From the IMG/VR virus record IMGVR_UViG_3300028048_000105: DNA of 64,000 nt; one strand, written 5' to 3'. The stretch's first letter is position 1; every line of letters starts with the position of its first letter. The position numbers and the translations under genes were made by a program. Shown one piece after another: positions 29,750 to 61,999 of this stretch. The DNA is from a virus (lineage: Duplodnaviria > Heunggongvirae > Uroviricota > Caudoviricetes). The notes below the pieces were generated by a model. It was not told the origin of the DNA and searched no databases. It saw only the letters and a program-made list of their open reading frames with translations.

Positions 29750-29750
29750 C

Positions 29751-30648: not shown

Positions 30649-30653
30649 CTTAT

Positions 30654-30743: not shown

Positions 30744-30749
30744 CTATAT

Positions 30750-37835: not shown

Positions 37836-38135
37836 CTACGGACGAATATGGAATCCGAACGAAAAACGTTCATTGATCTCTTTTCGGATCATGTCCATTA
37901 CTTTCGGGTCATTTGTGTAGAACATTGGAATCCCGGTACCATCCGGTTTGCATTCAATTCCTTTTTTTCGGATCTTTTCTATAATCTTTTCCTTTTCACT
38001 TGCCGGAGGGATATATGATGGCACCTCCGGTGTTTCTGATGCTTTCTTTGGCATATTATATCTCCTTGCTTTATATTTTATATTCTTTTCTGTCACCATC
38101 TTTTGTGGTACCAGACAATATTTCAACCCATACAT
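37836..38135 (-). CDS. hypothetical protein (start probably internal; ORF-track start lies inside a CRISPR repeat)
   Basis: 99 aa ORF. Confidence 0.35.
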   Translation of the reverse strand: MYGLKYCLVPQKMVTEKNIKYKARRYNMPKKASETPEVPSYIPPASEKEKIIEKIRKKGIECKPDGTGIPMFYTNDPKVMDMIRKEINERFSFGFHIRP

Positions 38136-38217
38136 CCCATAAGGGATGCAACTATATCTATGCAGGCAGCGACGATTCAGTATAATATTTCAACCCTGCA
38201 CCCTTGCGGGGTGCAAC
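38121..38217 (-). CRISPR. Satellite mini-array: 2 repeats (38121-38152, 38188-38217) + 35-nt spacer
   Basis: TTTCAACCCATACATCCCATAAGGGATGCAAC and TTTCAACCCTGCACCCTTGCGGGGTGCAAC; perfect hairpins; located between two co-oriented ORFs. Confidence 0.6.
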
Positions 38218-38606: not shown

Positions 38607-38750
38607 GGGATATCCGGGAGTCGGACCCGGAACAGCTTACGCTGCGTCCTCACTATCCCTTCCGGGTATTACCCGGAAGGGTAAACAAATATCGAAAGGA
38701 TTTCTGCCAGCCGGTAACCCTGACAGCCCGGTTTATGACCTTTACAATAC
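38607..38750 (-). ncRNA. tRNA-like structured leader element, copy 3 (ends CCGGGUCCGACUCCCGGAUAUCCCUUUUUU)
   Basis: Hairpin + U-run 35 nt upstream of the downstream start codon (intrinsic-terminator-like). Confidence 0.45.
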
Positions 38751-38782
38751 ACATATTGCGCCATCTTAAAAATCGTCAAAAT
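38750..38782 (-). promoter_or_regulatory. Module A promoter copy
   Basis: ATATTGCGCCAT..AATCGTCAAA. Confidence 0.45.
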
Positions 38783-38849
38783 TTTTTTAAAAAAATATTG
38801 TATTTATTTTTATACATAGTATCAACCTTTTATTTTTAATATAATATTA

Positions 38850-41220: not shown

Positions 41221-41365
41221 GAAGCATCCGGGAATCGGACCCGGAAGCAGCATGTGCTGCTATCCTCCTGCTCCTTTCCGGGTTTTTCCCGGAAGCGTAA
41301 ACATTTTTCGAAAGGATTTCTGCCAGCCGGTAACCCTGGCAGCCCGGTTTATGACCTTTACATGA
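41221..41365 (-). ncRNA. tRNA-like structured leader element, copy 4
   Basis: Same hairpin series; T-arm mimic CCGGGUCCGAUUCCCGG. Confidence 0.4.
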
Positions 41366-41396
41366 TACATATTGCGCCATCTGGTAAATTGTCAAA
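41366..41396 (-). promoter_or_regulatory. Module A promoter copy (TTGACA variant)
   Basis: ATATTGCGCCAT..AATTGTCAAA. Confidence 0.45.
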
Positions 41397-41653
41397 GGAA
41401 TTTAGAAAGTTTTTTAAAAATATTTTTGCAACCGTATACTGGAAAACCTCATATTTTAATTTTTGAGATAAGCTGTACACATCGTCCGCTTGCAGGCAGA
41501 AAAAGAAGGAACGGTTTCCCATTCCCCCTTAAGTGATTTGTTGCTATCTTCTCTTATCCACAACTTCCTTCGGGACATCCCAGATTTTTTCGCTGATTTC
41601 CTTCTCGATTTCATAGTTTCAAGATAAATAGGCGAGGATTCTCGGTAATTCAA

Positions 41654-43063: not shown

Positions 43064-43335
43064 AGTTACTGTCTCCTTAAAAATCCAGTTACGGACTTGT
43101 ACTGCGGCTGGCACCACGATGGTGCTGTGGTAGCCAGCTGCTTCTTCTCGTTAATGTTGAGAATGGGTTACGCGGGCAGCGCACTGTCCGGTGTCTCGGA
43201 CCTGACGACTTAGCAACCGCCCATCGGCTTTCATGCTGAAGAAGCACATACCGCCGCCTCCATCCTAACGTAGTCCCGAAGGACTGAAACTGCTCAACCA
43301 TCTATCGGACAGCTTCGCATGCTCTCGCATGCTCG
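43064..43335 (-). ncRNA. candidate IscB ωRNA #2
   Basis: Structured 270-nt region 5' of iscB, begins right after a truncated module B. Confidence 0.5.
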
Positions 43336-47914: not shown

Positions 47915-48895
47915 TCACAAATTTTTTTGTTTTGAGTTATAAAATTGTGGCGAAAACCACAGGTTTTCCTGTGGGAATTAGTGAGTTTTCCTTAAATTGC
48001 TATATTCACAGATGCGTAAAATACGCTCTGATTCTTGAACGGTTCGGGTAACCCCTGCCCCACATATCCCAGTAATTTTCTCCCGCTTTCCTTGCACATG
48101 CAATGCTTGAAACATGAGATTTTCTGTCCATCTTACGCTTCTTGGAATACGAAAACAGGACTTTCTCTCCGTTTCCATACCGGTATAGATTTTCCCGCTG
48201 TTTCTTTATTTTCCTCCCTTTCCCTCTCATCCTCTTTTTACACATACGAATTTTCCTTTCGAACGAATGCCTATTTATGTTTTTCTAATACAAATATTGC
48301 GCCATTTGGGGAATCGTCAAAGGGATTCGGGGAAAATTTATAAAAAAAGAGAGGGAAAATTTTCCTCTCTCTCATGCGAAATTTGGATAGCCTAGAAGAA
48401 CATAAGGCACAGTGGAAGCACAAAGATTGCATATAGGACCACCGTCGCAGCCATGATCGATATACATTTTGCCTTGAAAATTTTAACGTCATGAAGGAAT
48501 GCGCCTGATGATGGGTACAGCTTCTTAACCTGGCCCGTAAATATTGACGATTCCTCTCCAGGTGCGGCAATATCAGCGAATAAATTCCATTTAGTAATTC
48601 TTGAATATTCACTACTCTCAAATGACCACCCCCATATGCCAAACAAGCGTGGAAGACCGCATGAAAAATCGTGAGGATGTTTTGTTTCTCTCAGAAAACA
48701 TTTCTTTTCTTCCGGGTATCCGAAAAAAGTGGTTGAATATCACTAATTCGGATACCTTTTCTTATGTCTGTTTGGTCGCAAAAAGTGGTTGAAAAGTATG
48801 GGCGATTGTAGCAAATATACCCGATAAAAATTGTAATTAAAAAGAGCCGCTTGTTATGACGGCTCTGGTTGAAAAATCTGAAATATTTACTGTGT

Positions 48896-50284
48896 CTAAA
48901 AATCATCATCCTGGTTGAAATCATCATCTGGTTCTGGAAACGGCTCATAGTCATCCTCGTCATCGTCGTCCTCATATTCTTTCGCACTGTCAAAGCGGAA
49001 TACAGGCTGATCTTCGGGAATGATAGGACCGACTTCAACAAGTCCATTTTCAAGTATTGCTCTAAGATTTGCGTTTCTGTACAGTGTCCTTGCTCTCAAC
49101 ACTTCAAAAGAATATCCTCTGCCACGCAGATTGTTTTCACGGATAAGTCTGTTCATACATTCTGTATATCCATTTGATATAGCAATCGGGCAGTCCCAAT
49201 AGGCAAATATCTGCTCATAAAAATTATGAACCGTACCTGAAAGTTCTCTGAATTTATCGTATAGTTTATCTTCAGGAATGGACTTTTCCCATTCTTCAAA
49301 AGCTTTCTGGGCGTTATCCTTTGAGGATGGATTTTTATCATAAATATTGAAAAAATCTTCCTTAAGATCAAATGCTATGGCAAGTGGCTCTGTGTCCGGG
49401 TTGTTCCTTGCTGCTTTTATCTTTGCCGCTTCTTCCGGATCAAGGTCATCAAGCCTGGTCTTGAGTGTATATGCAAGTCCCCGCTTAGTCTTAATGCGGT
49501 CTTTTTTAGTCATATCCTTCTGTATTTCACGCCTTACCGCATCAACAGCCTCATTTGCCTTCATAACTACGTGAAAGTGATCAATAGCCCACCTTGCATT
49601 AGGCATTGCATCCCCGATACTCTTCTCAAAAGGCCTGTACATGTCAGAGCACACCCACTTTACTTTTTCCCTGTCACGCAGTTCCATGAAATATTCTGTT
49701 AGGGATTTTTGATTTCTTCCCTGAAGGATATCATACAGTGTACGATGTTCTATGTCCGTAATGACTGTCAGCTCACCAAGTTTTTTGACTTTAATCTCGT
49801 CAATTCCTATAAACTCAGGAGTCCTAAACCGGAGATTTAGCTTGTTATCATTTAGAAAGTCTACAAATACATTTTTTACAGTATTAGCTGACAGAACAAA
49901 ATCCAGTGAAGCATCTTCAAAGGTGGTGCGCATTGAATGTTCTGTAAGGCTCATAAGCGCCCTGCGGGTCATCATGTGGTTTTCGTCAACATTGTATAGA
50001 TCTGGCTTCCAGACGTGTTTTTCACCTTCATTACGACATCTTTTACGAGGAATCTCAATATCAAGCACAACAGGACATCCCTGTAGTGGGGTATCATTTA
50101 CCTGTATCCGCCTTGAACCATGCTTATACATAGGACTGCCACATACCGGGCATATATCAGGGATTCCTCCGCTGTATTTTAGAGATATAACTTTGTAATG
50201 CTTTTTTTTGTCATACTTATCTTCAATGCTCTCAATATCATAGTCCTTGATACCAAGGAGCATTAAAGCCATGTTATTAGCCAT
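48896..50284 (-). CDS. ISL3-family transposase with acidic C-terminal tail
   Basis: N-terminal zf (CPVCGSP..C..C), DDE_Tnp_ISL3-like core; 462 aa. Confidence 0.75.
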   Translation of the reverse strand: MANNMALMLLGIKDYDIESIEDKYDKKKHYKVISLKYSGGIPDICPVCGSPMYKHGSRRIQVNDTPLQGCPVVLDIEIPRKRCRNEGEKHVWKPDLYNVDENHMMTRRALMSLTEHSMRTTFEDASLDFVLSANTVKNVFVDFLNDNKLNLRFRTPEFIGIDEIKVKKLGELTVITDIEHRTLYDILQGRNQKSLTEYFMELRDREKVKWVCSDMYRPFEKSIGDAMPNARWAIDHFHVVMKANEAVDAVRREIQKDMTKKDRIKTKRGLAYTLKTRLDDLDPEEAAKIKAARNNPDTEPLAIAFDLKEDFFNIYDKNPSSKDNAQKAFEEWEKSIPEDKLYDKFRELSGTVHNFYEQIFAYWDCPIAISNGYTECMNRLIRENNLRGRGYSFEVLRARTLYRNANLRAILENGLVEVGPIIPEDQPVFRFDSAKEYEDDDDEDDYEPFPEPDDDFNQDDDF

Positions 50285-50287
50285 ATT

Positions 50288-53200
50288 TTACTCCTTGTTG
50301 TGTGTGAACTCTGATATTTCCTCGATATCAAGATGCTTCTTCTTGTTTACAAGGTCATATATGAGCTCTGCAATAGGCCTGATTGCCTGCGGATCATCGA
50401 GGATCTGCGTGGCAAGCTGTCCAAGCTCATTGTTCTTAAGCGACAGGGCAGCGACCTTGATGATATTTTCAAGCCTTCCGTCAGCGATAATGGCTTCCTT
50501 GCTGTTTGTTGAGTTTCTTATCTGGATACGGCTTACGTCATCAGCTGATACTGAATCCACAATGGCATTGACCGCTCTTGCGCCTTCAACAGCAGGAACA
50601 TCTTCACCAAATGCTTCATTCAGCTTTTCTACAATTTCTTTCAGAGATGATCTCTTTTTCTTTGAGGTGCCGGAACCCGAGCCCATAGGACGAAGGATTG
50701 CCGGATCATCGTCACCGCCGGGAAGAGGTCTGTCTACTTCGCTTATGCGGTAATCGGACAGTACAAGGCTTGAAATATCAATCTCTTCAAGGGCTGTTCC
50801 GTCAAGCCTCTTTAATAGCAGCTTTGCGAAGCCATAGAAAATCTCAAGTTCAGGCTCACCAAGGTCTACTATCTGCGAAATAAAGGTATAGGAGGAACAG
50901 TATTTCTTAAGGTCTTTCTTGAAATCAAGAAGTTTTTCCTGTTCTTTTCCAATCTCTTCCAGTTTAGTTTCTGCCTGTGCCAGAAGATCGTTATTGCCCG
51001 TTCTCTTTGCTTCTTCCTTATTGGAACTCCATGTGGCAAAGGAGTTATGGTTAGCCTTGTAAGCATTGTTCCATCTCTCGGCAGGGGCAGATACAGCCTG
51101 ATACAGTTTCTTCCTGTATGCGTCCTTTACGGATGCAGAAATAGCGTCTATGGACTTGTAACGGACATCCCGATAAATATTTATCTCATCCTGTGTATAG
51201 ACATCACGTTCATCAAGACGCTTCTTTGTGTCATATACGATTTCAAGTTTCTGGGCATGTTCCATATGTGCGCCGCGGTCATACTTATTAAAGGCTCTTT
51301 CCACGGTCTCAGGATCATTTACGAAGTCCACCACGAATACGTGATCTTTTCCTGAGAATGTACGGTTAAGACGGGAATAGGTCTGCACGATCTCGATGTC
51401 GTTACAGAGCTTCTTGTCAATGTACATAGCGCAGAGCTTTGGCTGGTTAAAGCCCGTCTGGAACTTGTCACACACGATCATGATGCGATTTTCAGGCTTG
51501 TCAAAGGCAACTTCCACCTTCTGATAACCGATATTGTTGGAATTCTCTTCCGTGTAGTCATAGTCCCTGCGGATGGCAGCAAAAGGATTCTCCTTAAGGT
51601 ACTCAAACTCCGTGATTGTGTTCTCGTCCTCATCTGTGATAGCCATAGCGCCATTTACCTTGCCGGAGAATGCCACAAGGGGTTCGCCCGGTACCTGAAA
51701 ACGGATGGCATCTTTTACCTTTTCCCTGTCATATTCAGGGTGTGCGTTAAGATACGCTTCAATAGCATACTTATAGCGGATAACAGCGGGACGGGACGAT
51801 GCTACGATCATTGCCTTTGCCTGTCCGCCAAGCATCATGGAGACATTCTTTATGAAATGCTCGATGATAAACTGTGTTTTTTGCATTACATTGGTAGGAT
51901 GCAATGACTCCCACATGGCGATGGTTCGCATTGCAGCATGTTCATCCACAAGTTTGTCCGACACGATATCCTCTTTCAGCTTATATGCGGTCTTGTAAGG
52001 TATATAACCCTGTAAAACGTCAAGGATGTAACCTTCCTCAATAGCCTGTCTCATAGGATACAGATCAAATGATTCGGGAATAGGCCTGCCGGTCTTTTCA
52101 TCAATTTTATCAGAGTCACGCCCGAATAATGTCTTTGTTTCGGGTTTTGGAGTAGCGGTATAAGCAAAGAATGATACGTTCTCAGGCCATGTGCGGTCCC
52201 CCTGCTCATTCTTGAAATAGGCAAGTATCATTTCTTCATCAGTTACAGCAGCGTCAGGATCGCCAGTTTCCTTGGATTTGTCTTTTGACGCAAGTTTAAG
52301 GGCAGCTTTCATTTTTCCTGCAAACTGTCCCGTCTGGGAAGAATGTGCCTCGTCGATAAGAACAGCAAAGTTAGCGCCTTCGAGCATATCATCAGATGCT
52401 ATCTCTTCAAGGGCAAACGGGAATGTTTGGAGGGTAACAACAATGATCTCCCGTCTGTCATGTAGAGCTTTTGCGAGCTGTTTGTTCTTCGCTCCCTGCG
52501 AACGGGTACCCTCGTCACCACCGATCATTTCAATAAGGCCGGGAGTCTTTTTGAGCTGCTTTATCGTGCCCTTGATGTTGGAATCAAGCCCTACACGGTC
52601 TGTAACAACGATTACCGAAGAAAATACCTTTTCTCCGTCAGGCTTTCTGATATTGATAAGCTCATGGGCAGTCCATGAGATCGTCTCCGTCTTTCCAGAG
52701 CCTGCGGAATGCTCTATGAGGTAGCGTCTGCCAACACCGTTATCCTTTACATCGTTAAGGCACTTTGTAACACAGTTCCACTGATGAAAGCGTGGGAAAA
52801 GCTGTGTACGGACTTCCTTGAGCCTTCCCGTGGCATCTTCCTTCTTTGATACGCTCTCAAAGATGAAATCATGAAAAATGCGGAGCCAGTTTTCCTTCTG
52901 GCATATCTCGTTCCAGAAATAGCCTGTAGGATAATCATCAGCGCCATCTTTCATTGGATCATTGCCTGCGTGACCGTCAGAGGTCCCCTTGTTGAACGGA
53001 AGAAAATGCGGTTCATCCGGTTCAAGGTTGGTGCACATCCAGATCTCATCCTCTGAAATAGCAAAATGAACGACAGCACCACGTTTGTACATCAGAAGAG
53101 GGTTCTTTCTTCTTGTGCCGGGTTCAATAGGCTTTCTTTGGGTCTGATATTCTTCAATAGCATCCTGCACTGTCTGGGTAAGCTCTGTCTTTATTTCAGC

Positions 53201-53668
53201 AGTAGCAACAGGAATGCCATTGATGAAGAATACAAGGTCAAGCGATTTATTTCCTGCGGTCTGATAGTGTACCTGGTGCATCACCCTGAGAATATTAGCA
53301 TTATATTTCTGCTTGATATTGGGAATACGGGTATCGTCAGGGTAATGGCCTGAACACTCAATGGTCTGATAGCCCGCCATTACAAAACCGTTACGAAGTG
53401 TCTGCACGGTTCCGTCAACTTCAAGAGAATTGATAAGTGCCTTTTCAAGGTTTCCTTTCCAATTTGTTCCAAATCCTTTCTGCATCTTTTCGATCTTATC
53501 AGGTGATATGGCAGTAACATAGTCAATAAAATCATCAAGAACAAGAGCAGTATTAGCATCAAAACCTGCGTCATTCTTGCTGATCTGCCAGCCATTTTTT
53601 GACAGTTCTTCGAGCTTACGGCTGATATAGTGCTCAAAGTTTGTTTCCAGTCTGATGTCTTCAGGCAT
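50288..53668 (-). CDS. hsdR: Type I restriction enzyme R subunit HsdR
   Basis: SF2 helicase motifs SAGSGKT, DEAH (LIDEAHSS); 1126 aa. Confidence 0.85.
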   Translation of the reverse strand: MPEDIRLETNFEHYISRKLEELSKNGWQISKNDAGFDANTALVLDDFIDYVTAISPDKIEKMQKGFGTNWKGNLEKALINSLEVDGTVQTLRNGFVMAGYQTIECSGHYPDDTRIPNIKQKYNANILRVMHQVHYQTAGNKSLDLVFFINGIPVATAEIKTELTQTVQDAIEEYQTQRKPIEPGTRRKNPLLMYKRGAVVHFAISEDEIWMCTNLEPDEPHFLPFNKGTSDGHAGNDPMKDGADDYPTGYFWNEICQKENWLRIFHDFIFESVSKKEDATGRLKEVRTQLFPRFHQWNCVTKCLNDVKDNGVGRRYLIEHSAGSGKTETISWTAHELINIRKPDGEKVFSSVIVVTDRVGLDSNIKGTIKQLKKTPGLIEMIGGDEGTRSQGAKNKQLAKALHDRREIIVVTLQTFPFALEEIASDDMLEGANFAVLIDEAHSSQTGQFAGKMKAALKLASKDKSKETGDPDAAVTDEEMILAYFKNEQGDRTWPENVSFFAYTATPKPETKTLFGRDSDKIDEKTGRPIPESFDLYPMRQAIEEGYILDVLQGYIPYKTAYKLKEDIVSDKLVDEHAAMRTIAMWESLHPTNVMQKTQFIIEHFIKNVSMMLGGQAKAMIVASSRPAVIRYKYAIEAYLNAHPEYDREKVKDAIRFQVPGEPLVAFSGKVNGAMAITDEDENTITEFEYLKENPFAAIRRDYDYTEENSNNIGYQKVEVAFDKPENRIMIVCDKFQTGFNQPKLCAMYIDKKLCNDIEIVQTYSRLNRTFSGKDHVFVVDFVNDPETVERAFNKYDRGAHMEHAQKLEIVYDTKKRLDERDVYTQDEINIYRDVRYKSIDAISASVKDAYRKKLYQAVSAPAERWNNAYKANHNSFATWSSNKEEAKRTGNNDLLAQAETKLEEIGKEQEKLLDFKKDLKKYCSSYTFISQIVDLGEPELEIFYGFAKLLLKRLDGTALEEIDISSLVLSDYRISEVDRPLPGGDDDPAILRPMGSGSGTSKKKRSSLKEIVEKLNEAFGEDVPAVEGARAVNAIVDSVSADDVSRIQIRNSTNSKEAIIADGRLENIIKVAALSLKNNELGQLATQILDDPQAIRPIAELIYDLVNKKKHLDIEEISEFTHNKE

Positions 53669-53682
53669 TTTTATATCCTCCT

Positions 53683-55065
53683 TTATCTGAGATAATAGGC
53701 AGCCTGTCTGCCAAGATTAAGTGTAAGTGCTTCTTCAAATCCTCTTGATACATCACTCTGTCTGCTCGAAGCATGAGTACATTCATGTATCAGGGTTCCT
53801 GCAAAGGCTTCAATAGATGAAAGCTGAGAGCGCTTTATCCATACAATGCCTTTCTTTGCATCCCATAATCCGAGTGTCTGTGATTTCTGTTCATCAGAGT
53901 ACAGCTCCTCAGATATTTTTATGCTTGAAACAACGCCCGGTAGTCCGCCCATGAAAGCTAATATTTCGGGCATTTTGTTGTAAACGTCCTGCTCGGCTTT
54001 TGTAAGCGCAGATATATCTATTGCGTCACCAGAGAAGGATTCGTTTTTCTTCTGGTTGTATTTTCCTATTGTTGTTACACTTCGGATGGAAGTAGCTTTT
54101 TCTTTGAGCTTGTCAGGAATGATAAATACCTGGTATCCGTCATCCTGAGCATCGGATATCTCCATGCGCCGATTCACCGCTTCCTCGCCCGTAACAAACA
54201 GAAGCTTGTTATTGATGCGGGATAGCTGTTCTATAACATACATCTGAACATCAATCCAGTTCATTTCATCGTGTCCGCCGCCCTTTACGACCATTTCAAG
54301 GTCTTTCATAAGAGATTTAAGAACATCCTCATTTTCGGCGCTTTTAACGATATTTTTAACGGAATCTGTATAAGCAGCACGACCCACGTTATCACGCTCC
54401 CTGTTAAGAGCTTTTCGGAGTTTTGTCGGGAGGTTTGTGATGTTGTAGGAATAGAGGAAATTGCTTTCCTCAGCTACTTTTACGCCATGGATATAGATGT
54501 TTGCAGGCTTACGAAGTGGTTTATCAAGTATCTGCCCGAAACCTGTGGATTCCAATACTATTTCATCTGAAAAGCACAGGAACAGCCTCTTTGCTGTTTC
54601 GATATCTTCATCACTACACCCCTCAAGAGAGAAGTCTGTACCGACCATTTCAGCGTCATCAGGATCAGATATCTCAGCATGAAGCGTAGTTACATCATCA
54701 AATCCTTCCTTCTGAAGCTGTTTAAGCCTAATAGTGCCATATTTTGAACGGATAACCACCTTTATGTCATGACGAAAGAACACCGCAAGGGAATCCTTTA
54801 AACCGACACCAAACTTACCGATAAGACCGTCTGCGGAGAGCTTTTCGTCATTCTCATTCTGCGTGAGATGATGATAATTAAGCCCCCTGCCATAGTCGGT
54901 AATATGCCAGATGCCATTTTCTTTATGGATACTGATATCAGCTGTTCTTGTCAGTTTCTGTTCATCGAGCGCATTTGCGATAACTTCTCTGACAGCATGG
55001 TAAACTTCCCAGTTTTCCAGTATCTTTTCTATATTGAGATCAAATTCTTTAACCATAGGTATCAA
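53683..55065 (-). CDS. GHKL (Bergerat-fold) ATPase fused to C-terminal HExxH region
   Basis: N-box EVIANALDE, G1 box DYGRGL, C-terminal LIHECTHA. Confidence 0.55.
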   Translation of the reverse strand: MIPMVKEFDLNIEKILENWEVYHAVREVIANALDEQKLTRTADISIHKENGIWHITDYGRGLNYHHLTQNENDEKLSADGLIGKFGVGLKDSLAVFFRHDIKVVIRSKYGTIRLKQLQKEGFDDVTTLHAEISDPDDAEMVGTDFSLEGCSDEDIETAKRLFLCFSDEIVLESTGFGQILDKPLRKPANIYIHGVKVAEESNFLYSYNITNLPTKLRKALNRERDNVGRAAYTDSVKNIVKSAENEDVLKSLMKDLEMVVKGGGHDEMNWIDVQMYVIEQLSRINNKLLFVTGEEAVNRRMEISDAQDDGYQVFIIPDKLKEKATSIRSVTTIGKYNQKKNESFSGDAIDISALTKAEQDVYNKMPEILAFMGGLPGVVSSIKISEELYSDEQKSQTLGLWDAKKGIVWIKRSQLSSIEAFAGTLIHECTHASSRQSDVSRGFEEALTLNLGRQAAYYLR

Positions 55066-55673
55066 AACACCTTCTGCATTCGTTGTAATGCTTCATCCCT
55101 GTTATCGCTATGGAACACTTCTTTATCAAATGTATCAAGCTGAACTTTCTTATATTCGTCAGCGTGATTGTAGTATTCAATAGCGTTACTGCATAGAGCA
55201 TAAATAAGGACACCCATATTAACAACAGGTCTGCCAAATTGCCATTTACCATCAACAAATGATTGTGATTGAATGGGATATTCAGCATTGGAATACGCCA
55301 TATCAAACAGATAATGTTCACCTTTCATATCACCTTCATGAGTGAGATTGTTTCTCAACCCGTAAAGTCTGTTTGCAAGATGCTCCATTCCGTCAGTATA
55401 CGCACTGTCTTGGGTCGGGCAGTTGTCCTTGCATACATTCATTTCTGAATTCAGATTATGACAATTCAAACAAGAGATAGTGGCCTCTATTGGGCATACG
55501 CCTTTCAGAAAATCTTTTGTCCATTGCTTATAGTGGTGTCCCACCCCTGTGTTTGGATATTCCACCTTGCCACATATATCAGGTAATGATATAGCAGCAG
55601 GAAGAACAACACGCCCAAACCCTTGCTTTCTCGCCTTTTCAATTTCTTCGCAATACTCTATGAAATGACTCAT
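55062..55673 (-). CDS. hypothetical Cys-rich protein, partner of the GHKL ATPase
   Basis: 203 aa, overlaps both neighbours by 4 nt. Confidence 0.45.
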   Translation of the reverse strand: MSHFIEYCEEIEKARKQGFGRVVLPAAISLPDICGKVEYPNTGVGHHYKQWTKDFLKGVCPIEATISCLNCHNLNSEMNVCKDNCPTQDSAYTDGMEHLANRLYGLRNNLTHEGDMKGEHYLFDMAYSNAEYPIQSQSFVDGKWQFGRPVVNMGVLIYALCSNAIEYYNHADEYKKVQLDTFDKEVFHSDNRDEALQRMQKVF

Positions 55674-56929
55674 ACAACCTCATTTCTGCAATCAATTTTG
55701 CCTGTAACAGCGTAGTAAATAAGGGATTTTTTGTATTCTTCCCATTTGTTTATAGCCTCTTGCTTTTTAGCAATAAGAGAATCAACAGAAGCGCATTTCT
55801 TATGAATGTAGTTCACAATATCCGTCTGTTCTTGCTCCGAAGGGACAAGCACATAAGTCCTAACAAAGTCCCAGTAATCAAGGCTTTGGCGCAAGCCACC
55901 ACCCATACTATAAAATACCTTTTCTATGTCATAGCAATGGAGCAGATAATGATAATATTCTGAGTTCACACCTGCCTTGGGTTTTAATGTCATATATGCC
56001 GATGTGATGATGCCGCGTTCTTTTACAAGTCCGGTTCTAAGACTTCTATGGTCATTTTGAAGATCCGTACCACGAATAACAATATCATCGGCTTCAACAA
56101 TGTTGTATCCGTCAAATGATTCCGGAAGAAGTCCCTCTTTGGTATCAATGTTTTTACGAATAATGTTTCCATAGCTGAGCGATAAAAGGTTCTTTTCCTG
56201 CAAATACTTATTTTTATTGAGTCTGCGAGAATAAAACTTGCGGAGCTGTTTAACCCCCCACATCTCCGGCACCTCACCAATCCACTCAACCCCCGAATCT
56301 TTCATCATCGTATCCGGATCAAGCCCCTTTGTCACAGCCTTTGTAATGACAGCCTTCTTGTATTCTTCCAGTTTCTCAATGGATTTCTTTGTCTTTTCGA
56401 TTGCTGTGTCGATGGCTGAGCACTTGCGGTCAAGGAAACTAGCAATCTGGCGCTGTTCATGTAATTCTGGGAATACAATATAAGAATTATTCATTATCCC
56501 CATGGTAATGAAGCCCATGGTTGTCTCATGGATTTCTGCTTTTAATGCTTCAGTAATGGTAGATAAATAATAAAAGGCAAATTTTTTATCAATGTTGTTT
56601 GAAAGAATTGCTTTCCAAATATGGTAGTGGAATATAACCTTATCCCCCGACCATATAAATGGTGCATACGACATAGACCAAGCATAAAGCAAGTCACCAT
56701 TACAACAGTATTTTTCAGGTTCCAATTCCAAACTTGATGTATACCATGTGGGATTTGTAAAAAGGTTTCCAACTCTTAATACTCGGTATTTCCCGTTTTC
56801 TTCAAACTCGGAATCTTTATACGCTCTTCCATTAAGAAGCTGTATTTCATATTTCTGTTTGCAACAATTCCAATCAGAAGGAATTTGACCTATCCATTTG
56901 ATTCCTGAATCTTTCAGCTCTCTGCTCAT
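55670..56929 (-). CDS. hsdS: Type I R-M specificity subunit HsdS (two TRDs)
   Basis: Two target-recognition repeats each beginning ..W.GQIPSDW / ..WIGEVPEMW; 419 aa. Confidence 0.8.
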   Translation of the reverse strand: MSRELKDSGIKWIGQIPSDWNCCKQKYEIQLLNGRAYKDSEFEENGKYRVLRVGNLFTNPTWYTSSLELEPEKYCCNGDLLYAWSMSYAPFIWSGDKVIFHYHIWKAILSNNIDKKFAFYYLSTITEALKAEIHETTMGFITMGIMNNSYIVFPELHEQRQIASFLDRKCSAIDTAIEKTKKSIEKLEEYKKAVITKAVTKGLDPDTMMKDSGVEWIGEVPEMWGVKQLRKFYSRRLNKNKYLQEKNLLSLSYGNIIRKNIDTKEGLLPESFDGYNIVEADDIVIRGTDLQNDHRSLRTGLVKERGIITSAYMTLKPKAGVNSEYYHYLLHCYDIEKVFYSMGGGLRQSLDYWDFVRTYVLVPSEQEQTDIVNYIHKKCASVDSLIAKKQEAINKWEEYKKSLIYYAVTGKIDCRNEVV

Positions 56930-58983
56930 ACAAACACTCCCTTCAGAGCCTCTTCAATCTCAGGCTCAAGAGCTTCCAGTTCTGCCATTATCTCTGCCGG
57001 ATCACGGGGAGCTTCATAATGGTAGAAGTATTTGTCAAAGGATATCTGCGTTCCGACAACGCCTGTCTTTTGGTCGCCCATTACTCCTGTATCAATAACA
57101 GTGTCATCAACCCATGCATCGGGCACGTAAGGATATACTTCTTTCTCCATGTATTCGTTGATGTCCTGCTCAAAAGGTACTTTTTCGACATCCTTAAGAT
57201 CAGGATCGGGTACGGGCTTGCCGTTCTTGTCGTAAACAATATCCTCATCATCCTCAGTCTTTACCCCAAATACCTTAATAAAGGCATCCTGAAGCTGCTT
57301 ATTTGTTATCTCGGGCTTATCAAGTTTATCCCTGAAATCAGATGAGTGACTGATGAACCAGTTATACTTAACAGTCTGACCGTCCATGGCTGCTACAGCA
57401 CGCTTTAATGTATCCTTGTTGGTCTCGGATAGTTTCTGCATAGCTTTTATCTCAAACAGTTCATCCCACTTTTCAAGGTCAAATGTAACCACCTGTTTAA
57501 GTGGTCTCTGTACAGTAACAGCACGGTACATGAACTCTTCAACAGGAAGAAGCTCTGACTTGCCGCCGTTATGTCCGTCAATATAGGTCTGGATGATCCA
57601 TTGCATTTTTGCATCCGGAATATCCTTACGCTTATTTCCAAGAGACTTCCTGCGAAGCTCGCCGCAATCAGAAGCATCAATGAGCTGTATCTTGCCTTTG
57701 CGGTTATCATCTTTCTTTGTGCTCAGAATCCACAGATAGGTGTTGATGCCAGTTCGGAAAAAGATATCCGTTGGAAGTTTTACTACGCAGTCAACGAGAT
57801 CGTTCCTAAAGAGCCATCTTCTTATATCAGAAGGGCCCGAACCTGCATCACCATTAAAGAGAGGAGATGCAGAAAGGACGATACCCGCCTTTGCGCCACC
57901 TTCTTCTTCAGTCTTCATGTGAGCGACCATATTCTGAATAAAGAGCATAGAGCCGTCGCTTATTGACGGAAGACCGGCTCCAAAGCGTCCTGCAAATCCA
58001 TGGTTCGCCTCGGCACGGACTTCCTCTGCCTCTTTTTCCCATTTTTTACCGTAAGGCGGATTTGAAACACAGTAGTCGAAGTGCATATCTTCGAATTGGT
58101 CGTCCGAAAGTGTATCAGCGTTCAGGATATGAGCTGACAAATCTTTTGTCTGATCGTATACATCTTTCTCCGTATCAGAAACATTTCTGATAAGAAGATT
58201 GGCCTTACCCATAGCCCATGTAACGCCGGATAGCTCCTGTCCGTAAGGGACAATGACAGCAGGAGCTTTCATCTGCTTGTTTTCATGCCATTCATTAAGA
58301 AGATCCAGAGCATCAGTAATAAACCCGCCTGTACCGCATGTCTGATCATAAAGAGTTCTTACGATACCTGTATCAGAGCTCATAAGCTCATCATCATTGG
58401 CAAAGATCATACCTATAGCGAGCCTTACAATATCCTTGGGGGTCATGAAATCTTCGGCGTCCTCAGCAATCTCATCGCCGTAACGCTGTATAAGGTGTTC
58501 ATATATATCCGACATATCCCTGTCGGTAACTGTATCTGAATCAAAGGGTAAAGCAGAGAACTTCTGACATACGGAATAGAGCATACCGTTATCATGCAGC
58601 TTCTTGCAGGTATTCTCCATTTCAAATTTAAGTAAGATATCACGGGCATTTGGTGAAAAGCCGTTGATATAAGAATCAAGAGCAGCGTAGGTATCTGATG
58701 CTCCGAGATTGTTAAGCCTGAATCCGGTCACGTTATAAAACGCCTTGCCGGAATACTGACAGTAGTTGTCGGACTCACGCCCCCAGTCATCCTCATGCTC
58801 TTCAAGTGCAGCACATACGGCAGCTCTTGTTGGTTCAAGAGCGCACTCAAGCCTTCTGAGAAGTGCAAAAGGCAGGACTACCTTGTTATAGTCTGCCCTG
58901 GATATTACATCCCTAACGTAGTCTGCGATGTTCCAAATCTCATTAACATAGTCCAGATTTGTTTTCTTTTGTTCTTCAGCCAT
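56926..58983 (-). CDS. hsdM: Type I R-M N6-adenine methyltransferase HsdM
   Basis: HsdM_N signature IWNIADYVRDVI, catalytic NPPYG, SAM-binding motifs; 685 aa. Confidence 0.85.
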   Translation of the reverse strand: MAEEQKKTNLDYVNEIWNIADYVRDVISRADYNKVVLPFALLRRLECALEPTRAAVCAALEEHEDDWGRESDNYCQYSGKAFYNVTGFRLNNLGASDTYAALDSYINGFSPNARDILLKFEMENTCKKLHDNGMLYSVCQKFSALPFDSDTVTDRDMSDIYEHLIQRYGDEIAEDAEDFMTPKDIVRLAIGMIFANDDELMSSDTGIVRTLYDQTCGTGGFITDALDLLNEWHENKQMKAPAVIVPYGQELSGVTWAMGKANLLIRNVSDTEKDVYDQTKDLSAHILNADTLSDDQFEDMHFDYCVSNPPYGKKWEKEAEEVRAEANHGFAGRFGAGLPSISDGSMLFIQNMVAHMKTEEEGGAKAGIVLSASPLFNGDAGSGPSDIRRWLFRNDLVDCVVKLPTDIFFRTGINTYLWILSTKKDDNRKGKIQLIDASDCGELRRKSLGNKRKDIPDAKMQWIIQTYIDGHNGGKSELLPVEEFMYRAVTVQRPLKQVVTFDLEKWDELFEIKAMQKLSETNKDTLKRAVAAMDGQTVKYNWFISHSSDFRDKLDKPEITNKQLQDAFIKVFGVKTEDDEDIVYDKNGKPVPDPDLKDVEKVPFEQDINEYMEKEVYPYVPDAWVDDTVIDTGVMGDQKTGVVGTQISFDKYFYHYEAPRDPAEIMAELEALEPEIEEALKGVFV

Positions 58984-59205
58984 TAGTTACTCCTTTATAT
59001 TAAATGTTATTTTCAACCACTTTTTGAGGAAACACCCCTATTAAAATATATCACACATACACGTACGTTTCAACCACTTTTTGAGGAAACACTACTTATA
59101 TTATGGTAATAAAAATAGCCAGGTAGAACAATGTCTACCTGACTATATGCTTTTGATATTTCAACCACAGAGGGTTATATATTTTGCTTATTCAGATATA
59201 GGTTT

Positions 59206-59652
59206 TCAACCACTTTTTGCGGTTAGCCTTTCTTCCATTGTATCACCTGGAACCATTCCGTATCCAACATCCTTACTGAAAGCTTTGTAATACTGTCCGA
59301 TACATTCACACAGCTTCTCAAAATTTTCAACACGGCATTTCTTCCCATCGTTAGCGAAATCATACTGTAATTCGTTACATTGATTACTTGCATTGACATA
59401 CTCTTCCGCAATCATATACATTTCCTTTAATTTCTTTGAAGCAAACCCGGCTTTGAAGACACCATGGTAAAATACCAGTACAGGTCCTGCAACCAACAGA
59501 ACAATTCCTACAAGATACAAAAATCCAAGCCCAATAACAAGAAACTCATATCCAACTGCCTGAAAATATTCAGCTGCTCCAGCCCCGGTCTTTCCGACAC
59601 TCGTCATCGCCTCCGTCGCATGCTGCAACAAATCAAGATACTTGTTTAACAT
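59206..59652 (-). CDS. membrane protein, hypothetical
   Basis: 148 aa with central hydrophobic helices. Confidence 0.4.
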   Translation of the reverse strand: MLNKYLDLLQHATEAMTSVGKTGAGAAEYFQAVGYEFLVIGLGFLYLVGIVLLVAGPVLVFYHGVFKAGFASKKLKEMYMIAEEYVNASNQCNELQYDFANDGKKCRVENFEKLCECIGQYYKAFSKDVGYGMVPGDTMEERLTAKSG

Positions 59653-59775
59653 CTTCTTTTTTCCTCCTTAAATCACAAACAATTTACAATTATGCTGCAA
59701 AAACAAAAGCATGGACTGGCCACACATTTCTCATACCGCCTCTTCCTTTCTGCGGGTTTCCAGCTTTTCCACGGT

Positions 59776-60000
59776 TCAGAGAATATGCTGGCAGACAAGT
59801 CCGCGCTCTAAGATGTTGTATTCAAAATCCGTCGAGGTTCCAAATTCCGGGAAATACTGAGAACCGTGGATATAGGGAATTCCCTTCCATTTCCCGGACG
59901 TATCACACTTGATGATGCCGTAAGAGTTGAGGTCCGGGCACCACACGGGCTGCCCTTGCATGTTTTTCAATTCTTCCAAAGTTAATGCTTCTTTGCTCAT
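59776..60000 (-). CDS. small hypothetical protein
   Basis: 74 aa, preceded by tRNA-like leader variant and module A. Confidence 0.4.
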   Translation of the reverse strand: MSKEALTLEELKNMQGQPVWCPDLNSYGIIKCDTSGKWKGIPYIHGSQYFPEFGTSTDFEYNILERGLVCQHIL

Positions 60001-60002
60001 TC

Positions 60003-60224
60003 TTTTTCCCCTTTCTTCTTATACGAAAGGAATCCTCCGGACTCGAACCGGATGAACAGCCACTTTGTGTCCAGTGCTGGCAAAGCTCTGTGGACTCCTC
60101 CTGTACTGCCCCGTAACAGGAGGACAGCGCAGTCATAGATATACATTTAAAATTCGGAGGTCTGTGGAGAGACGAATCTCCACAGGAAAAGGCAGGACCA
60201 TGAATCCTTTTATGCCTTTTCAAT
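60003..60224 (-). ncRNA. tRNA-like structured leader element, copy 5 (divergent; T-arm CCGGUUCGAGUCCGG, acceptor GGAGUCC/GGAUUCC)
   Basis: Between module A (60225-60258) and the 59776..60000 start. Confidence 0.35.
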
Positions 60225-60402
60225 ACACATATTGCGCCATTTGAAAAATCGTCAAAGGATTTCGGAAACTTTTTAATTTTTTTTCAAAGTTTTTGAGAAA
60301 ATCTTTGGAAAAGAGAAAATATAGGAAAAATTGCCACGAAGGTTGCCATAAAAAAGAGCCCGTCATCAGACGAACCCTTTCATTTCATTTCATTTTATTC
60401 CA

Positions 60403-61899
60403 TTATGCAAATTTCACTATTTTCCCATCCATGTTCAAGGCTTGTAACACATACTTTTTAACAAATTTTCCAATTGCCTGGGTTACACCGTTTCCAATCT
60501 GCTGTTGTTTCGCGTTTAAGGTTGATCCGAAAACTTTGAATTCCTTTGGGAGTCCCATAAGCGCTGCCGCCTCGGATACATTAAGAATACGGTTTTCCTC
60601 TGGATGTGTGAGGTTGATTTTCCTCCAGTTTACCAGGGTAGGCGACGGCTGATCCCATGCAAGGCGTTGGTAAATATCAGAGTGCGTTGCCGGTCCAAAT
60701 TTATGGATTTCCGGAGGAACATCTTTCCAGTTACCTCCCTGCGGAACGTAGCTCATTGTCAACCGGGTGGACTCTCTTGGGAGAGTCACATCGTCCCAGG
60801 TCAACCATGTACTATCCACGTCTTTTAATGCATCCCTTACGGTTTTTACCGTTTGAAATGTTACATCTGGGAGCACAATCTCGCCAATTCTGCTTCCGAT
60901 AACAATCGCTCTTTTCCGGGTTGTGTACCCGCCAACCGATGAATCACACACAACTTTCGTTGTAATCTTATACTCCGGGAGAAAATTAAATACCTTATTG
61001 ATATACATTCCGTGTTCCTTTGTAAGAAGCTGTGGTACATTTTCAATTACAAAGACCTTCGGCTGCTTACACTTGACGATCCGGATGTAATCTTCAATCA
61101 ACAGGCGTTTCTTTTCTGCATCCTCACTTTTCTCATTTCTTCTGTTTGCCGAAGAATACGCCTGGCAGCATGGGCCACCGATAACAACATCGGCGTCTGG
61201 CACGTCTTTTGCATCAACGTTCCTGATATCATCGCACATGATATGATTTCCGATATTATTCCGGTACGTTTCACATGCATCCTTATCGAAATCGATGCCA
61301 TATACAAATCGGAACTGCGGATCTTTAAACGCATAATCTAAAAGACCTGCCCCGGAGAAAAGAGAAACAACATCATATACTTTCTGGATCTCTTTTCTTG
61401 CCTTTCTGGAAACTGTTCCAGAAGAAGCGCTACCCTTACAGTTACTGCCACAAAGATACAAAAAATACGCATCATCGCTTAATGTTGGCTTGCCAAAAAG
61501 TTTCTGCGGATAATTCGATCCCACCGCACAATCCAGAACAATTTCTCCAGTGTATCGTCCAATAACATCCTCAATTTTTACAAGATTACTCCGATGGATG
61601 ATTTCCTTTTCTGAAACCTTCTTGATTGTATGAACAACAATCTTATTTTTGCAGACCTCAACTTCCAGGTAGTCACACGCACAAACGATTTTTCGAACTT
61701 CCTTTGAACGGATATCGAAAAGTGGCTTGTAAGCATTGCCGGATTTCTTTCTGCTCACCGTCATATTTCCGTTTTTGTCCGGAATAATAAGGATTTCCTT
61801 ATTTGCCTTATCGACAATATACCGGTACTTTTCTCCGATACCAAACAGCTTTTCCCTGATTGAGAATGTAAGTCCTCTTTTTAATCTCTTTATTTTCAT
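60403..61899 (-). CDS. dcm: DNA (cytosine-5)-methyltransferase with N-terminal extension
   Basis: Motif I FSGAGLLDYAF, motif IV PCCQAYS, motif VI ENVPQL; module B upstream. Confidence 0.8.
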   Translation of the reverse strand: MKIKRLKRGLTFSIREKLFGIGEKYRYIVDKANKEILIIPDKNGNMTVSRKKSGNAYKPLFDIRSKEVRKIVCACDYLEVEVCKNKIVVHTIKKVSEKEIIHRSNLVKIEDVIGRYTGEIVLDCAVGSNYPQKLFGKPTLSDDAYFLYLCGSNCKGSASSGTVSRKARKEIQKVYDVVSLFSGAGLLDYAFKDPQFRFVYGIDFDKDACETYRNNIGNHIMCDDIRNVDAKDVPDADVVIGGPCCQAYSSANRRNEKSEDAEKKRLLIEDYIRIVKCKQPKVFVIENVPQLLTKEHGMYINKVFNFLPEYKITTKVVCDSSVGGYTTRKRAIVIGSRIGEIVLPDVTFQTVKTVRDALKDVDSTWLTWDDVTLPRESTRLTMSYVPQGGNWKDVPPEIHKFGPATHSDIYQRLAWDQPSPTLVNWRKINLTHPEENRILNVSEAAALMGLPKEFKVFGSTLNAKQQQIGNGVTQAIGKFVKKYVLQALNMDGKIVKFA

Positions 61900-61999
61900 G
61901 ATTTTTCTCCTTTCAATTGATAAAAATGTTTACACAGAAAATATGAGATAAAAAAAAAGAGCCTGCCACAGTCAGACTCTTTTATACATTTGTTTCAGT

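What the first reader, a model, noticed from the sequence alone, without database searches (positions are those of the whole stretch)
48700..59230. Type I R-M island flanked by inverted families of (CAAAAAGT)GGTTGAAA repeats, with an ISL3 transposase translationally coupled to hsdR
Four repeat copies on the left (48715-48925) and four inverted on the right (59004-59225) bracket tnp + R-M. The transposase ATG is 3 nt after the hsdR stop, with its RBS inside hsdR, and there is no intervening IR. That is atypical for an independent ISL3 insertion and suggests a unit transposon or a domesticated transposase moving the R-M cargo. The right-hand pair (59004/59060, 25-nt repeat, 31-nt spacing) superficially resembles a mini-CRISPR.
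Basis: seen in the sequence. Interest (0 to 1): 0.55.

Follow-up and report, generated by a model that had tools for sequence, protein, structure and literature searches.

The report
ISKpn25-like transposon carrying a restriction system
The region is one 10.5-kb jumping gene of the ISL3 family that carries a complete type I restriction-modification (anti-phage) system as cargo; it is freshly inserted into a gene of a mobile element and belongs to an already known kind, typified by ISKpn25 of Klebsiella plasmids.

Summary
Window 48714-59228 is a single 10,515-bp ISL3-family unit transposon. It has 24-bp ISL3-type terminal inverted repeats (GGGTATCCGAAAAAAGTGGTTGAA / GGCTAACCGCAAAAAGTGGTTGAA) and a perfect 8-bp target-site duplication (TTTCTTCC). 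One minus-strand operon runs hsdM-hsdS-orf203-GHKL-like orf460-hsdR-tnp, with the tnp ATG 3 nt after the hsdR stop. Removing the element restores a 245-aa ORF. Two metagenome contigs, 98-99% identical in the flanks, carry the empty site with one TTTCTTCC copy. No inverted repeat separates tnp from hsdR.

Relatives with 34-88% transposase identity (Clostridia, Bifidobacterium, Sutterella, Klebsiella, Burkholderia, Shewanella) share the layout. In seven independent insertions the whole unit is bounded by IRs, six with a perfect 8-bp duplication and one with 7 of 8. One 8,596-bp element occurs 99.9% identical at two sites.

The kind is known: ISKpn25 (ISfinder, 8,154 bp) has been trapped experimentally as a whole unit. 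This element is a new, distant member with two extra cargo genes.

The four repeats per end are conserved subterminal copies of the IR core. They are probably transposase-binding sites, and two of them bracket the operon promoter. They are not a CRISPR. Interest is modest.

The parts
48392..48705 (-). 3' part of the interrupted target gene (245-aa predicted membrane protein of unknown function)
   Evidence: Joining 59652..59229 to 48705..48392 gives one continuous 245-aa ORF. Full-length 245-aa homologs exist at up to 89% identity, and 98-99% identical proteins read straight across the junction.
48706..48713 (.). Target-site duplication, left copy (TTTCTTCC)
   Evidence: Identical 8-mer at 59229-59236. 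The empty-site contigs L028 and L029 carry it once.
48714..48737 (+). Terminal inverted repeat IRR (GGGTATCCGAAAAAAGTGGTTGAA), site R1
   Evidence: It matches IRL at 21 of 24 positions. blastn homology to relatives stops exactly at 48713/48714. It resembles the published ISPst2/ISPpu12 IR GGGTATCCGGAATTTCTGGTTGAT.
48770..48793 (+). Subterminal repeat R2 (core at offset 74 from the end)
   Evidence: The offset is conserved in L008, L016 and L022.
48843..48866 (-). Terminator-like hairpin plus T-run just downstream of the tnp stop
   Evidence: 8-pair stem with 5 G-C pairs, followed by TTTTTAATT.
48867..48874 (+). Subterminal repeat R3 core (GGTTGAAA, offset 154)
   Evidence: The position is conserved in L008 and L016 (offset 164).
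48913..48920 (+). Subterminal repeat R4 core (offset 200), inside the last codons of tnp
   Evidence: The equivalent site lies at offset 209 in L008 and L016.
48896..50284 (-). ISL3-family DDE transposase, 462 aa, last gene of the operon
   Evidence: PF01610 E=3e-50 and Zn_ribbon_ISL3. NCBIfam transpos_ISL3 equivalog 228 bits against a cut-off of 180. About 40% identical to the ISKpn25 transposase.
50288..53668 (-). hsdR, type I restriction subunit, 1126 aa
   Evidence: HSDR_N, SWI2_SNF2/ResIII and T1R_D3-like domains. 41% identical over its full length to the ISKpn25 HsdR.
53683..55065 (-). Extra cargo gene: GHKL (HATPase_c)-like ATPase, 460 aa
   Evidence: HATPase_c E=4e-4, below the curated cut-off. 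The orthologs in relatives carry a precomputed PF25856 hit. The family has 1,679 representatives at E<=1e-3, some fused to TPR, LRR or Sel1 repeats. No PADLOC or PDB sequence match.
55062..55673 (-). Extra cargo gene: orf203, unknown function
   Evidence: No Pfam, NCBIfam, PADLOC or PDB match and only 7 homologs. The same slot holds a different gene in relatives: a 224-aa Nuc_deoxyrib_tr/TIR-like protein in L002 and L008.
55670..56929 (-). hsdS, specificity subunit, 419 aa
   Evidence: Methylase_S. PADLOC Specificity_I full-length match, E=3e-90.
56926..58983 (-). hsdM, methyltransferase subunit, 685 aa, first gene of the operon
   Evidence: HsdM_N and N6_Mtase. PADLOC MTase_I E=6e-206.
59012..59035 (-). 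Subterminal repeat L4 (offset 211), downstream of the -10 element
   Evidence: It forms an invariant block in the alignment of five elements.
59045..59073 (-). Predicted operon promoter: -35 TTGAAA (inside site L3), 17-nt spacer, TG-extended -10 TATATT
   Evidence: Best promoter-like match in 48600-59400, 10 of 12. Equivalent -35/-10 pairs lie in L008, L022, L026 and ISKpn25, read directly from the end sequences.
59069..59092 (-). Subterminal repeat L3 (offset 154), overlapping the -35 element
59115..59146 (-). Terminator-like hairpin (13 pairs) plus T-run between sites L2 and L3, pointing into the element
   Evidence: Equivalent hairpins are present in L008, L016 and L022.
59159..59166 (-). 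Subterminal repeat L2 core (offset 63)
   Evidence: GGTTG.A is invariant at this offset in five elements.
59205..59228 (-). Terminal inverted repeat IRL (GGCTAACCGCAAAAAGTGGTTGAA), site L1
59229..59236 (.). Target-site duplication, right copy (TTTCTTCC)
59237..59652 (-). 5' part of the interrupted target gene

Best explanation
Window 48714-59228 is one autonomous ISL3-family unit transposon (a 'transporter IS') of the ISKpn25 type.

Shown:
- It consists of two 24-bp terminal inverted repeats and a single minus-strand operon, hsdM-hsdS-orf203-orf460(GHKL-like)-hsdR-tnp.
- The tnp ATG lies 3 nt after the hsdR stop and its ribosome-binding site lies inside hsdR.
- The whole 10,515 bp is inserted in a 245-aa ORF of a mobile-element-like genome, with an 8-bp duplication of TTTCTTCC. 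Nearly identical genomes still have the empty site.
- Each end carries three further inward-facing copies of the IR core (TGGTTGAAA, often preceded by CNCAAWAAG), at offsets conserved among diverged relatives.

Inferred:
- The DDE transposase, made at low level as the last cistron, binds the terminal and subterminal sites, synapses the two ends and moves the entire unit.
- The predicted promoter lies between left-end sites 3 and 4, with its -35 inside site 3. Bound transposase would therefore repress the operon, and with it both its own synthesis and the R-M genes.
- The hairpin upstream of the promoter blocks read-in transcription, and the hairpin after tnp ends the operon.
- The cargo gives the carrier replicon type I restriction and modification, plus a probable accessory defence pair.
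For: Boundaries and insertion:
- The IRs match at 21 of 24 positions and the flanking 8-mers are identical.
- Excision in silico restores a 245-aa ORF with full-length homologs.
- Contigs L028 and L029 align at 98-99% to window ..59229 and continue at 48713.., with the 8 nt present once.
- Homology to all relatives ends exactly at 48713/48714.

IRs around tnp alone: none. There is no IR-like sequence between 48921 and 59010.

Relatives:
- Eleven sampled transposase lineages, 34-88% identical by global alignment, all lie directly downstream of hsdR.
- Six independent insertions show whole-unit IRs with perfect 8-bp TSDs, and one (L001) has 7 of 8.
- The 8,596-bp element is 99.92% identical in L021 and L022 with unrelated flanks and different TSDs.
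- HsdM, HsdR and Tnp identities co-vary across ten relatives.

Known kind:
- ISKpn25 is 8,154 bp with ORFs hsdM, hsdS, hsdR and tnp (PMC8796155 Table 1a). hsdM is called a passenger gene in PMC5142620.
- It was trapped experimentally as an 8,154-bp unit with A/T-rich 8-bp TSDs (PMC8768599).
- I recovered exactly 8,154 bp between IRs, with TSD GAAATTAG, in a K. pneumoniae plasmid.

End architecture:
- Conserved blocks coincide with the four sites, the hairpin and the -10 element.
- The best promoter match and the two best terminator matches fall where expected.
Against: - Transposase binding to the subterminal sites, and promoter repression by it, are inferred from sequence only.
- The promoter and terminators are consensus matches. 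The promoter scan as a whole found no more sites than shuffles did (18 against 23.5).
- Mobility of this particular copy is not demonstrated. It is inferred from the empty site and intact ends.
- Two relatives are one-ended: L002 lacks IRL and the B. longum locus L025 lacks IRR. Not every copy of the family is mobile.
- The function of the two extra genes is unknown.
Confidence: 0.92

Rival explanations
1. An ordinary ISL3 insertion sequence (tnp only) landed by chance next to a resident type I R-M operon, and the flanking repeats are unrelated to it.
For: ISL3 elements are usually 1.2-2.3 kb and carry only tnp (general knowledge of the family; for example ISArsp7, 1,451 bp).
Against: - No IR lies on the 5' side of tnp; only 3 nt separate it from hsdR.
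- The empty site lacks both the R-M genes and tnp.
- The TSD brackets the whole 10.5 kb.
- The same gene order is bounded by IRs and TSDs at other sites.
- Cargo and transposase co-diverge.
Confidence: 0.01
2. The island is an immobile fossil. The transposase is domesticated, or merely co-transcribed, and the element no longer transposes.
For: Two relatives have lost one end: L002 has no IRL and L025 (B. longum) has no IRR. This shows that such decay happens in the family.
Against: - In this copy both IRs and all eight sites are intact and the TSD is perfect.
- The split target ORF has no further damage, and 98-99% identical genomes have the empty site. The insertion is therefore recent.
- The transposase is full length and keeps the residues invariant across the family, including D162, D235 and E375.
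- A relative moved recently, and ISKpn25 is experimentally active.
Confidence: 0.05
3. The pair of 25-nt direct repeats at 59011-59092 is a minimal CRISPR array, or a CRISPR-related RNA, associated with the type I-C Cascade genes elsewhere in the window.
For: - Two identical 25-nt repeats are separated by 32 nt.
- The window encodes Cas5d, Csd1 and Cas7 at 22398-25811 and a CRISPR-like array whose repeats also end in GGTTGAAA.
Against: - There are only two copies, and the same motif occurs inverted at the other end of the transposon and as the terminal IR.
- The 'spacer' carries a -10 element conserved among relatives that have no Cascade genes nearby.
- The similarity to the I-C-like repeat is limited to 8 nt, and the repeat hairpin is absent.
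- No Rfam family matches there at gathering threshold.
- The array's spacers do not match the transposon.
Confidence: 0.01
4. The internal repeat copies are not transposase sites. They are operators for a host or element regulator, or remnants of earlier nested insertions.
For: No binding data exist. Copies 3 and 4 at the left end flank the predicted promoter, as an operator for any repressor would.
Against: - The internal copies share the core of the terminal IR, which the transposase must recognise.
- They occur at both ends, face inward, and sit at offsets conserved across elements 59-88% identical in transposase, while the intervening sequence has diverged.
- ISKpn25 has matching GGTTGG/GGTTGA copies derived from its own IR core.
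- No other DNA-binding protein is encoded in the element.
Confidence: 0.15

Closest known systems
ISKpn25 (ISfinder; ISL3 family; 8,154 bp; K. pneumoniae pKpQIL-type plasmids, reference NC_009650)
   Same: - Same gene order and orientation: hsdM-hsdS-hsdR-tnp, with tnp starting 4 nt after hsdR.
- 24-bp GG-initiated IRs, 8-bp A/T-rich TSDs and movement as a whole unit.
- Homologous along its length: HsdM 44%, HsdR 41-44% and Tnp about 40% identical.
- Internal copies of the IR core at both ends, two of them flanking a TTGACA promoter.
   Different: - The identity is far below any isoform threshold.
- The IR sequence differs (GGCTATTTGCATTCTGAGGTAGGA).
- This element has two additional genes between hsdS and hsdR, is 10.5 kb rather than 8.2 kb, and comes from a low-GC gut-metagenome mobile element rather than from Enterobacterales.
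ISPst2 / ISPpu12 / CLJ-ISL3 (ISL3 family with passenger genes, 2,985 bp)
   Same: - Very similar terminal IR: GGGTATCCGGAATTTCTGGTTGAT against GGGTATCCGAAAAAAGTGGTTGAA.
- 8-bp TSD, and passenger genes inside the IRs.
   Different: The passengers are an ArsR-type regulator and a permease, not an R-M system. The element is much smaller.
ISL3 element of Burkholderia phage Bcep22 (annotated IS boundaries)
   Same: An ISL3 element inside a phage genome, with two small passenger ORFs upstream of tnp and co-oriented with it. tnp starts 3 nt after the preceding ORF.
   Different: No R-M cargo, about 2.1 kb, and a transposase only about 34% identical.
Type I R-M operons with embedded accessory genes (e.g. 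the prr locus with PrrC; rlo genes of Campylobacter) - from my own knowledge
   Same: Unrelated accessory genes sit inside the hsd operon. Here the slot between hsdS and hsdR holds orf203 plus a GHKL-like gene. In relatives it holds a Nuc_deoxyrib_tr/TIR-like gene, a RhuM-family gene or nothing.
   Different: Those loci are not known to me as transposon cargo. The embedded genes here have no match in PADLOC.

Membership tests
ISL3 family of insertion sequences/transposons | ISL3-type DDE transposase | tested here: met
   PF01610 E=3e-50 with Zn_ribbon_ISL3. NCBIfam transpos_ISL3 equivalog 228 bits against a cut-off of 180.
ISL3 family of insertion sequences/transposons | Terminal inverted repeats of about 15-40 bp, starting GG and resembling known ISL3 IRs | tested here: met
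   24-bp IRs matching at 21 of 24 positions. About two-thirds of the IRR positions, including GGGTATCCG and TGGTTGA, match the published ISPst2 IRL.
ISL3 family of insertion sequences/transposons | 8-bp target-site duplication | tested here: met
   TTTCTTCC on both sides. It is single in empty-site contigs L028 and L029.
ISL3 family of insertion sequences/transposons | Demonstrated transposition of this copy | not testable with these tools
   Only indirect evidence: the empty site, a near-identical relative at two sites, and experimental trapping of ISKpn25.
ISKpn25-like subgroup (ISL3 with type I R-M passengers) | hsdM-hsdS-hsdR upstream of tnp, co-oriented with it, all inside one IR pair, tnp last and abutting hsdR | tested here: met
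   compared with ISKpn25.
ISKpn25-like subgroup (ISL3 with type I R-M passengers) | Homology to ISKpn25 in both transposase and cargo | tested here: met
   Tnp 39-40%, HsdR 41-44% and HsdM 44% identity.
ISKpn25 itself (same IS or an isoform; ISfinder uses very high identity, a criterion I recall rather than checked) | Near-identity to the 8,154-bp reference | tested here: not met
   About 40% protein identity, a different IR sequence, and two extra genes. It is therefore a distinct element.
Type I restriction-modification system | HsdM, HsdS and HsdR subunits with their characteristic domains | tested here: met
   - HsdM_N and N6_Mtase.
- Methylase_S, with a full-length PADLOC Specificity_I match.
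- HSDR_N, SF2 helicase and T1R_D3-like.
Type I restriction-modification system | Methylation and restriction activity, and the recognition sequence | not testable with these tools
   Needs methylome sequencing or phage plating.
CRISPR array (for the 59011-59092 pair) | Three or more regularly spaced repeats with variable spacers, and a repeat family or hairpin matched to cas genes | tested here: not met
   There are two copies only. The motif is the IR core and also occurs inverted at the other end. The 'spacer' holds a conserved -10 element. No Rfam hit.
Composite transposon (two IS copies flanking cargo) | A second transposase or IS copy at the other end | tested here: not met
   There is one tnp only. 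The right end consists of 245 bp of non-coding sites, hairpin and promoter.

The most novel reading that the evidence does not exclude
ISKpn25-like elements may form an old, cross-phylum lineage (Bacillota, Actinomycetota, Pseudomonadota) in which a type I R-M operon and an ISL3 transposase have co-diverged as one transcription unit. Two further features would make this more than a cargo story. First, the transposase would act through four conserved sites per end, two of which clamp the only promoter, so that a transposase sets the expression level of a restriction system as well as its own. Second, the hsdS-hsdR gap would serve as a slot that collects other, still undescribed defence genes, here a GHKL-ATPase plus a variable partner. 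I found no paper describing the lineage's breadth, the multi-site ends or the slot. The held library is incomplete, so this is not proof of absence.
Probability: 0.35. Interest if true: 0.5.

Novelty: new member of a known kind. Interest (0 to 1): 0.3.

Why it matters
It documents, with an empty site, that a complete type I restriction-modification system plus two probable accessory defence genes moves as a single ISL3 transposon in gut Clostridia-type mobile elements. The same design is known from ISKpn25 on Klebsiella resistance plasmids, and here it is found across three phyla. That makes this lineage a concrete, testable route for horizontal spread of type I R-M systems onto plasmids and phage-like elements. 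It also offers a natural system for studying how ISL3 transposases recognise multi-site ends. It does not change any current concept.

Tried and rejected
- The genome-contig scan with the transposase returned only one distant locus, L001. Relatives had to be reached through exact-protein look-ups.
- A 21-nt empty-junction pattern found nothing in viral contigs. The empty site was found instead through the reconstructed target protein.
- Megablast of the 24.7 kb next to the element against phages gave only a tRNA match. The host replicon stays unclassified.
- L002, one of the closest relatives sampled, has no left end within the fetched 10 kb. The contig's further upstream sequence could not be fetched.
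- For L025 (B. longum) no right IR was found. L032 is cut at the record end.
- orf203 has no family or PDB match. The AlphaFold model from 7 sequences has pLDDT 42, so no fold search was run.
- orf460 has no PADLOC or PDB sequence match.
- I considered a link between the transposon motif and the I-C-like CRISPR repeats, which share GGTTGAAA, and rejected it. Only 8 nt are shared, no spacer matches, and relatives lack Cascade genes.
- Literature searches for ISL3 with hsdR, type I restriction or subterminal sites found nothing beyond the ISKpn25 papers.
Full report
**1. What is in the sequence**

All large ORFs between 48.7 and 59.2 kb lie on the minus strand and abut or overlap one another:
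- hsdM, 56926-58983
- hsdS, 55670-56929
- an unknown 203-aa ORF, 55062-55673
- a 460-aa protein with a weak GHKL/HATPase_c signature, 53683-55065
- hsdR, 50288-53668
- an ISL3 transposase, 48896-50284: PF01610 E=3e-50; NCBIfam transpos_ISL3 228 bits against a cut-off of 180

The hsdR-tnp junction reads AAGGAGTAAAATATG.

The 14-mer AAAAAGTGGTTGAA occurs exactly five times in the 64 kb: two copies at the left of this block and three, inverted, at the right. Allowing up to 2 mismatches gives 6 matches, and none of 100 shuffles reached that number. The 8-nt core adds one more copy on the right and two on the left, giving four inward-facing copies per end.

**2. It is one transposon, and the insertion is documented**

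- The outermost copies are 24-bp inverted repeats: GGGTATCCGAAAAAAGTGGTTGAA starting at 48714, and GGCTAACCGCAAAAAGTGGTTGAA ending at 59228. They match at 21 of 24 positions.
- The 8 bp outside each repeat are identical: TTTCTTCC at 48706-48713 and at 59229-59236.
- Deleting 48714-59236 fuses two ORF fragments into one 245-aa ORF.
- That protein has full-length 245-aa homologs at up to 89% identity. Proteins 98-99% identical read straight through the junction (...DTMEEKKCFLRETKHP...).
- The contigs encoding those proteins, L028 and L029, align at 98-99% to window 60380/60262..59229 and continue without a break at 48713... The two alignments overlap by exactly 8 nt in the contig. These are empty sites holding one copy of TTTCTTCC.
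- A 24-nt consensus scan finds no IR-like sequence anywhere else in the window. In particular there is none next to the tnp start.

**3. Relatives**

Transposases 88, 83, 80, 75, 65 and 59% identical all sit immediately downstream of hsdR in an hsdM-hsdS-(0-2 genes)-hsdR operon. They come from gut metagenomes, [Clostridium] innocuum, Lacrimispora and Bifidobacterium longum. So does a 36% relative in Sutterella.

An automated search for IR pairs plus TSDs recovered the whole unit in seven independent insertions:

| Locus | TSD | Unit length (bp) |
|---|---|---|
| L008 / L011 | ACAATATA | 10,704 |
| L016 | CTTTTTGG | 10,696 |
| L021 | AGAATATA | 8,596 |
| L022 | CTTTTTTG | 8,596 |
| L026 / L027 | ATTTTTAT | 9,097 |
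| L001 | 7 of 8 match | 9,333 |
| L030 (K. pneumoniae plasmid) | GAAATTAG | 8,154 |

- The L021 and L022 copies are 99.92% identical over exactly the 8,596 bp, with unrelated flanks. L024 is a third site.
- HsdM, HsdR and Tnp identities to the window fall together, from 93/95/88% to 44/44/40%. Cargo and transposase have therefore diverged as a unit.
- Two loci are one-ended: L002 has no IRL and L025 has no IRR. These are probably immobilised copies.

**4. It is a known kind**

A tblastn search of plasmids returned about 38% identical hits annotated 'ISL3-like element ISKpn25 family transposase'. In those plasmids tnp follows hsdM-hsdS-hsdR, and Burkholderia and Shewanella plasmids show the same layout.

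What the papers say:
- The ISfinder entry for ISKpn25 is 8,154 bp with ORFs of 684, 438, 1085 and 422 aa (PMC8796155 Table 1a).
- The 8,154-bp unit was captured repeatedly on an entrapment vector with 8-bp TSDs such as CTTTTTTG and AAAGAAAA (PMC8768599).

Published ISL3 IRs (ISPst2/ISPpu12: GGGTATCCGGAATTTCTGGTTGAT, with 8-bp direct repeats) closely resemble the IRs found here. Passenger genes placed upstream of tnp, with tnp starting 3-4 nt after them, are also seen in the ISL3 element of phage Bcep22. The layout is therefore typical of passenger-carrying ISL3 elements, not atypical.

**5. The repeats**

Aligning the left ends of five elements and the right ends of six shows that conservation is concentrated in a few places:
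- the terminal IR
- three internal copies of its core, at offsets of about 63, 154-163 and 211-219 on the left, and about 74, 154-164 and 200-209 on the right
- a hairpin plus T-run between left sites 2 and 3
- a -10 element between left sites 3 and 4

The best promoter-like match in the region has its -35 (TTGAAA) inside site L3, a 17-nt spacer and a TG-extended TATATT. The two strongest terminator-like hairpins are the one upstream of this promoter and one just after tnp. ISKpn25 shows the same design with its own core, GGTTGA/GGTTGG.

My reading is inferred and not shown. The copies are transposase-binding sites. Those flanking the promoter allow autoregulation of the operon, including the R-M genes. 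The upstream hairpin insulates the element from outside transcription.

The 'mini-CRISPR' is simply sites L3 and L4. There are only two copies, the 'spacer' carries the -10 element, there is no Rfam match, and the only link to the window's I-C-like array is a shared 8-mer.

**6. Cargo beyond R-M**

- The 460-aa protein belongs to a sizeable family: 1,679 representatives at E<=1e-3. Some members carry C-terminal TPR, LRR or Sel1 repeats, and some carry N-terminal extensions.
- Its upstream partner varies between elements: orf203 here, and a Nuc_deoxyrib_tr/TIR-like 224-aa protein in L002 and L008. Other elements hold other genes in that slot, or none.
- Neither gene matches PADLOC or PDB sequences. 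A structure model of orf203 was too poor to use.
- A second defence module is plausible but untested.

**7. Verdict**

The element is a new, distant, enlarged member of the ISKpn25-type ISL3 transposons, so it is not a new kind of system. Two things may be new to the literature I could search: the cross-phylum breadth with co-divergence, and the conserved four-site ends with an embedded promoter.

Noticed in passing
window 21718-22148 (minus strand); also 38115-38215: A CRISPR-like array of 7 repeats (31-33 nt, type I-C-like shape, ending GGGTTGAAA) with 6 spacers of 29-36 nt. The hairpin stems differ between copies through compensatory changes: GCGCCCC/GGGGCGC, GTACCCC/GGGGTAC, GCACCCC/GGGGTG, ACATCCC/GGGATGT. 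A separate two-repeat unit lies at about 38.1-38.2 kb. No Rfam CRISPR family reached threshold, and the spacers match nothing else in the window or in the fetched loci.
   Followed up: partly
window 22398-25811 (minus strand): Cas7, Csd1/Cas8c and Cas5d genes (type I-C Cascade) lie next to that array. No Cas3, Cas1, Cas2 or Cas4 was seen among the large neighbouring ORFs. This would be a nuclease-less, adaptation-less Cascade on what looks like a mobile element.
   Followed up: partly
window 29542-30818: A cluster of 10 tRNA genes, one with an odd anticodon call. Elsewhere the window holds a Mob_Pre relaxase-like gene (7033-8088), RecJ, two RRXRR-HNH proteins (33189-34919 and 41654-43117), an LPD1-domain protein, an SNF2-like helicase and several DNA methyltransferases. 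The replicon looks like a large plasmid or phage-like element but was not classified.
   Followed up: partly
window 48274-48344, 60209-60265, 25794-25863, 21373-21458, 27865-27948, 33028-33087, 38732-38785, 41348-41420: An intergenic sequence of about 55-70 nt (TTTATG..TAATACAAATATTGCGCCATTTGG..AATCGTCAAAGG..) recurs at least 8 times in the window at 75-94% identity, mostly just upstream of minus-strand genes. It is possibly a shared promoter or regulatory cassette of the host element.
   Followed up: no
window 60381-61951 (C5 DNA methyltransferase gene 60403-61899): The empty-site contig L028 is collinear with the window but lacks this 1.57-kb segment. The breakpoints lie next to copies of the repeated intergenic sequence above, so the methylase gene is an indel between close relatives.
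   Followed up: no
window 53683-55673; L002 4544-6602; L017 833-3092: A two-gene module is nested between hsdS and hsdR. It pairs a conserved GHKL-ATPase-like protein (family members are fused to TPR, LRR or Sel1 repeats) with a variable small partner: orf203 here, and a Nuc_deoxyrib_tr/TIR-like protein in relatives. It is absent from PADLOC v2 and is a candidate accessory defence system.
   Followed up: partly
L011 583-744 compared with L008 882-1188: In one contig of the C. innocuum-type element, the 145 bp between left-end sites 1 and 3 are missing. This looks like recombination between the repeated sites, or an assembly collapse. The deletion removes site 2 and the hairpin.
   Followed up: no
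L025 (Bifidobacterium longum, GCA_017312505.1) 3150-11800: The B. longum copy keeps the left IR, the internal sites and the promoter, and hsdR overlaps tnp. No right IR was found downstream of tnp. The transposase cluster has 217 member sequences, which suggests a fixed, immobilised copy in that species.
   Followed up: partly
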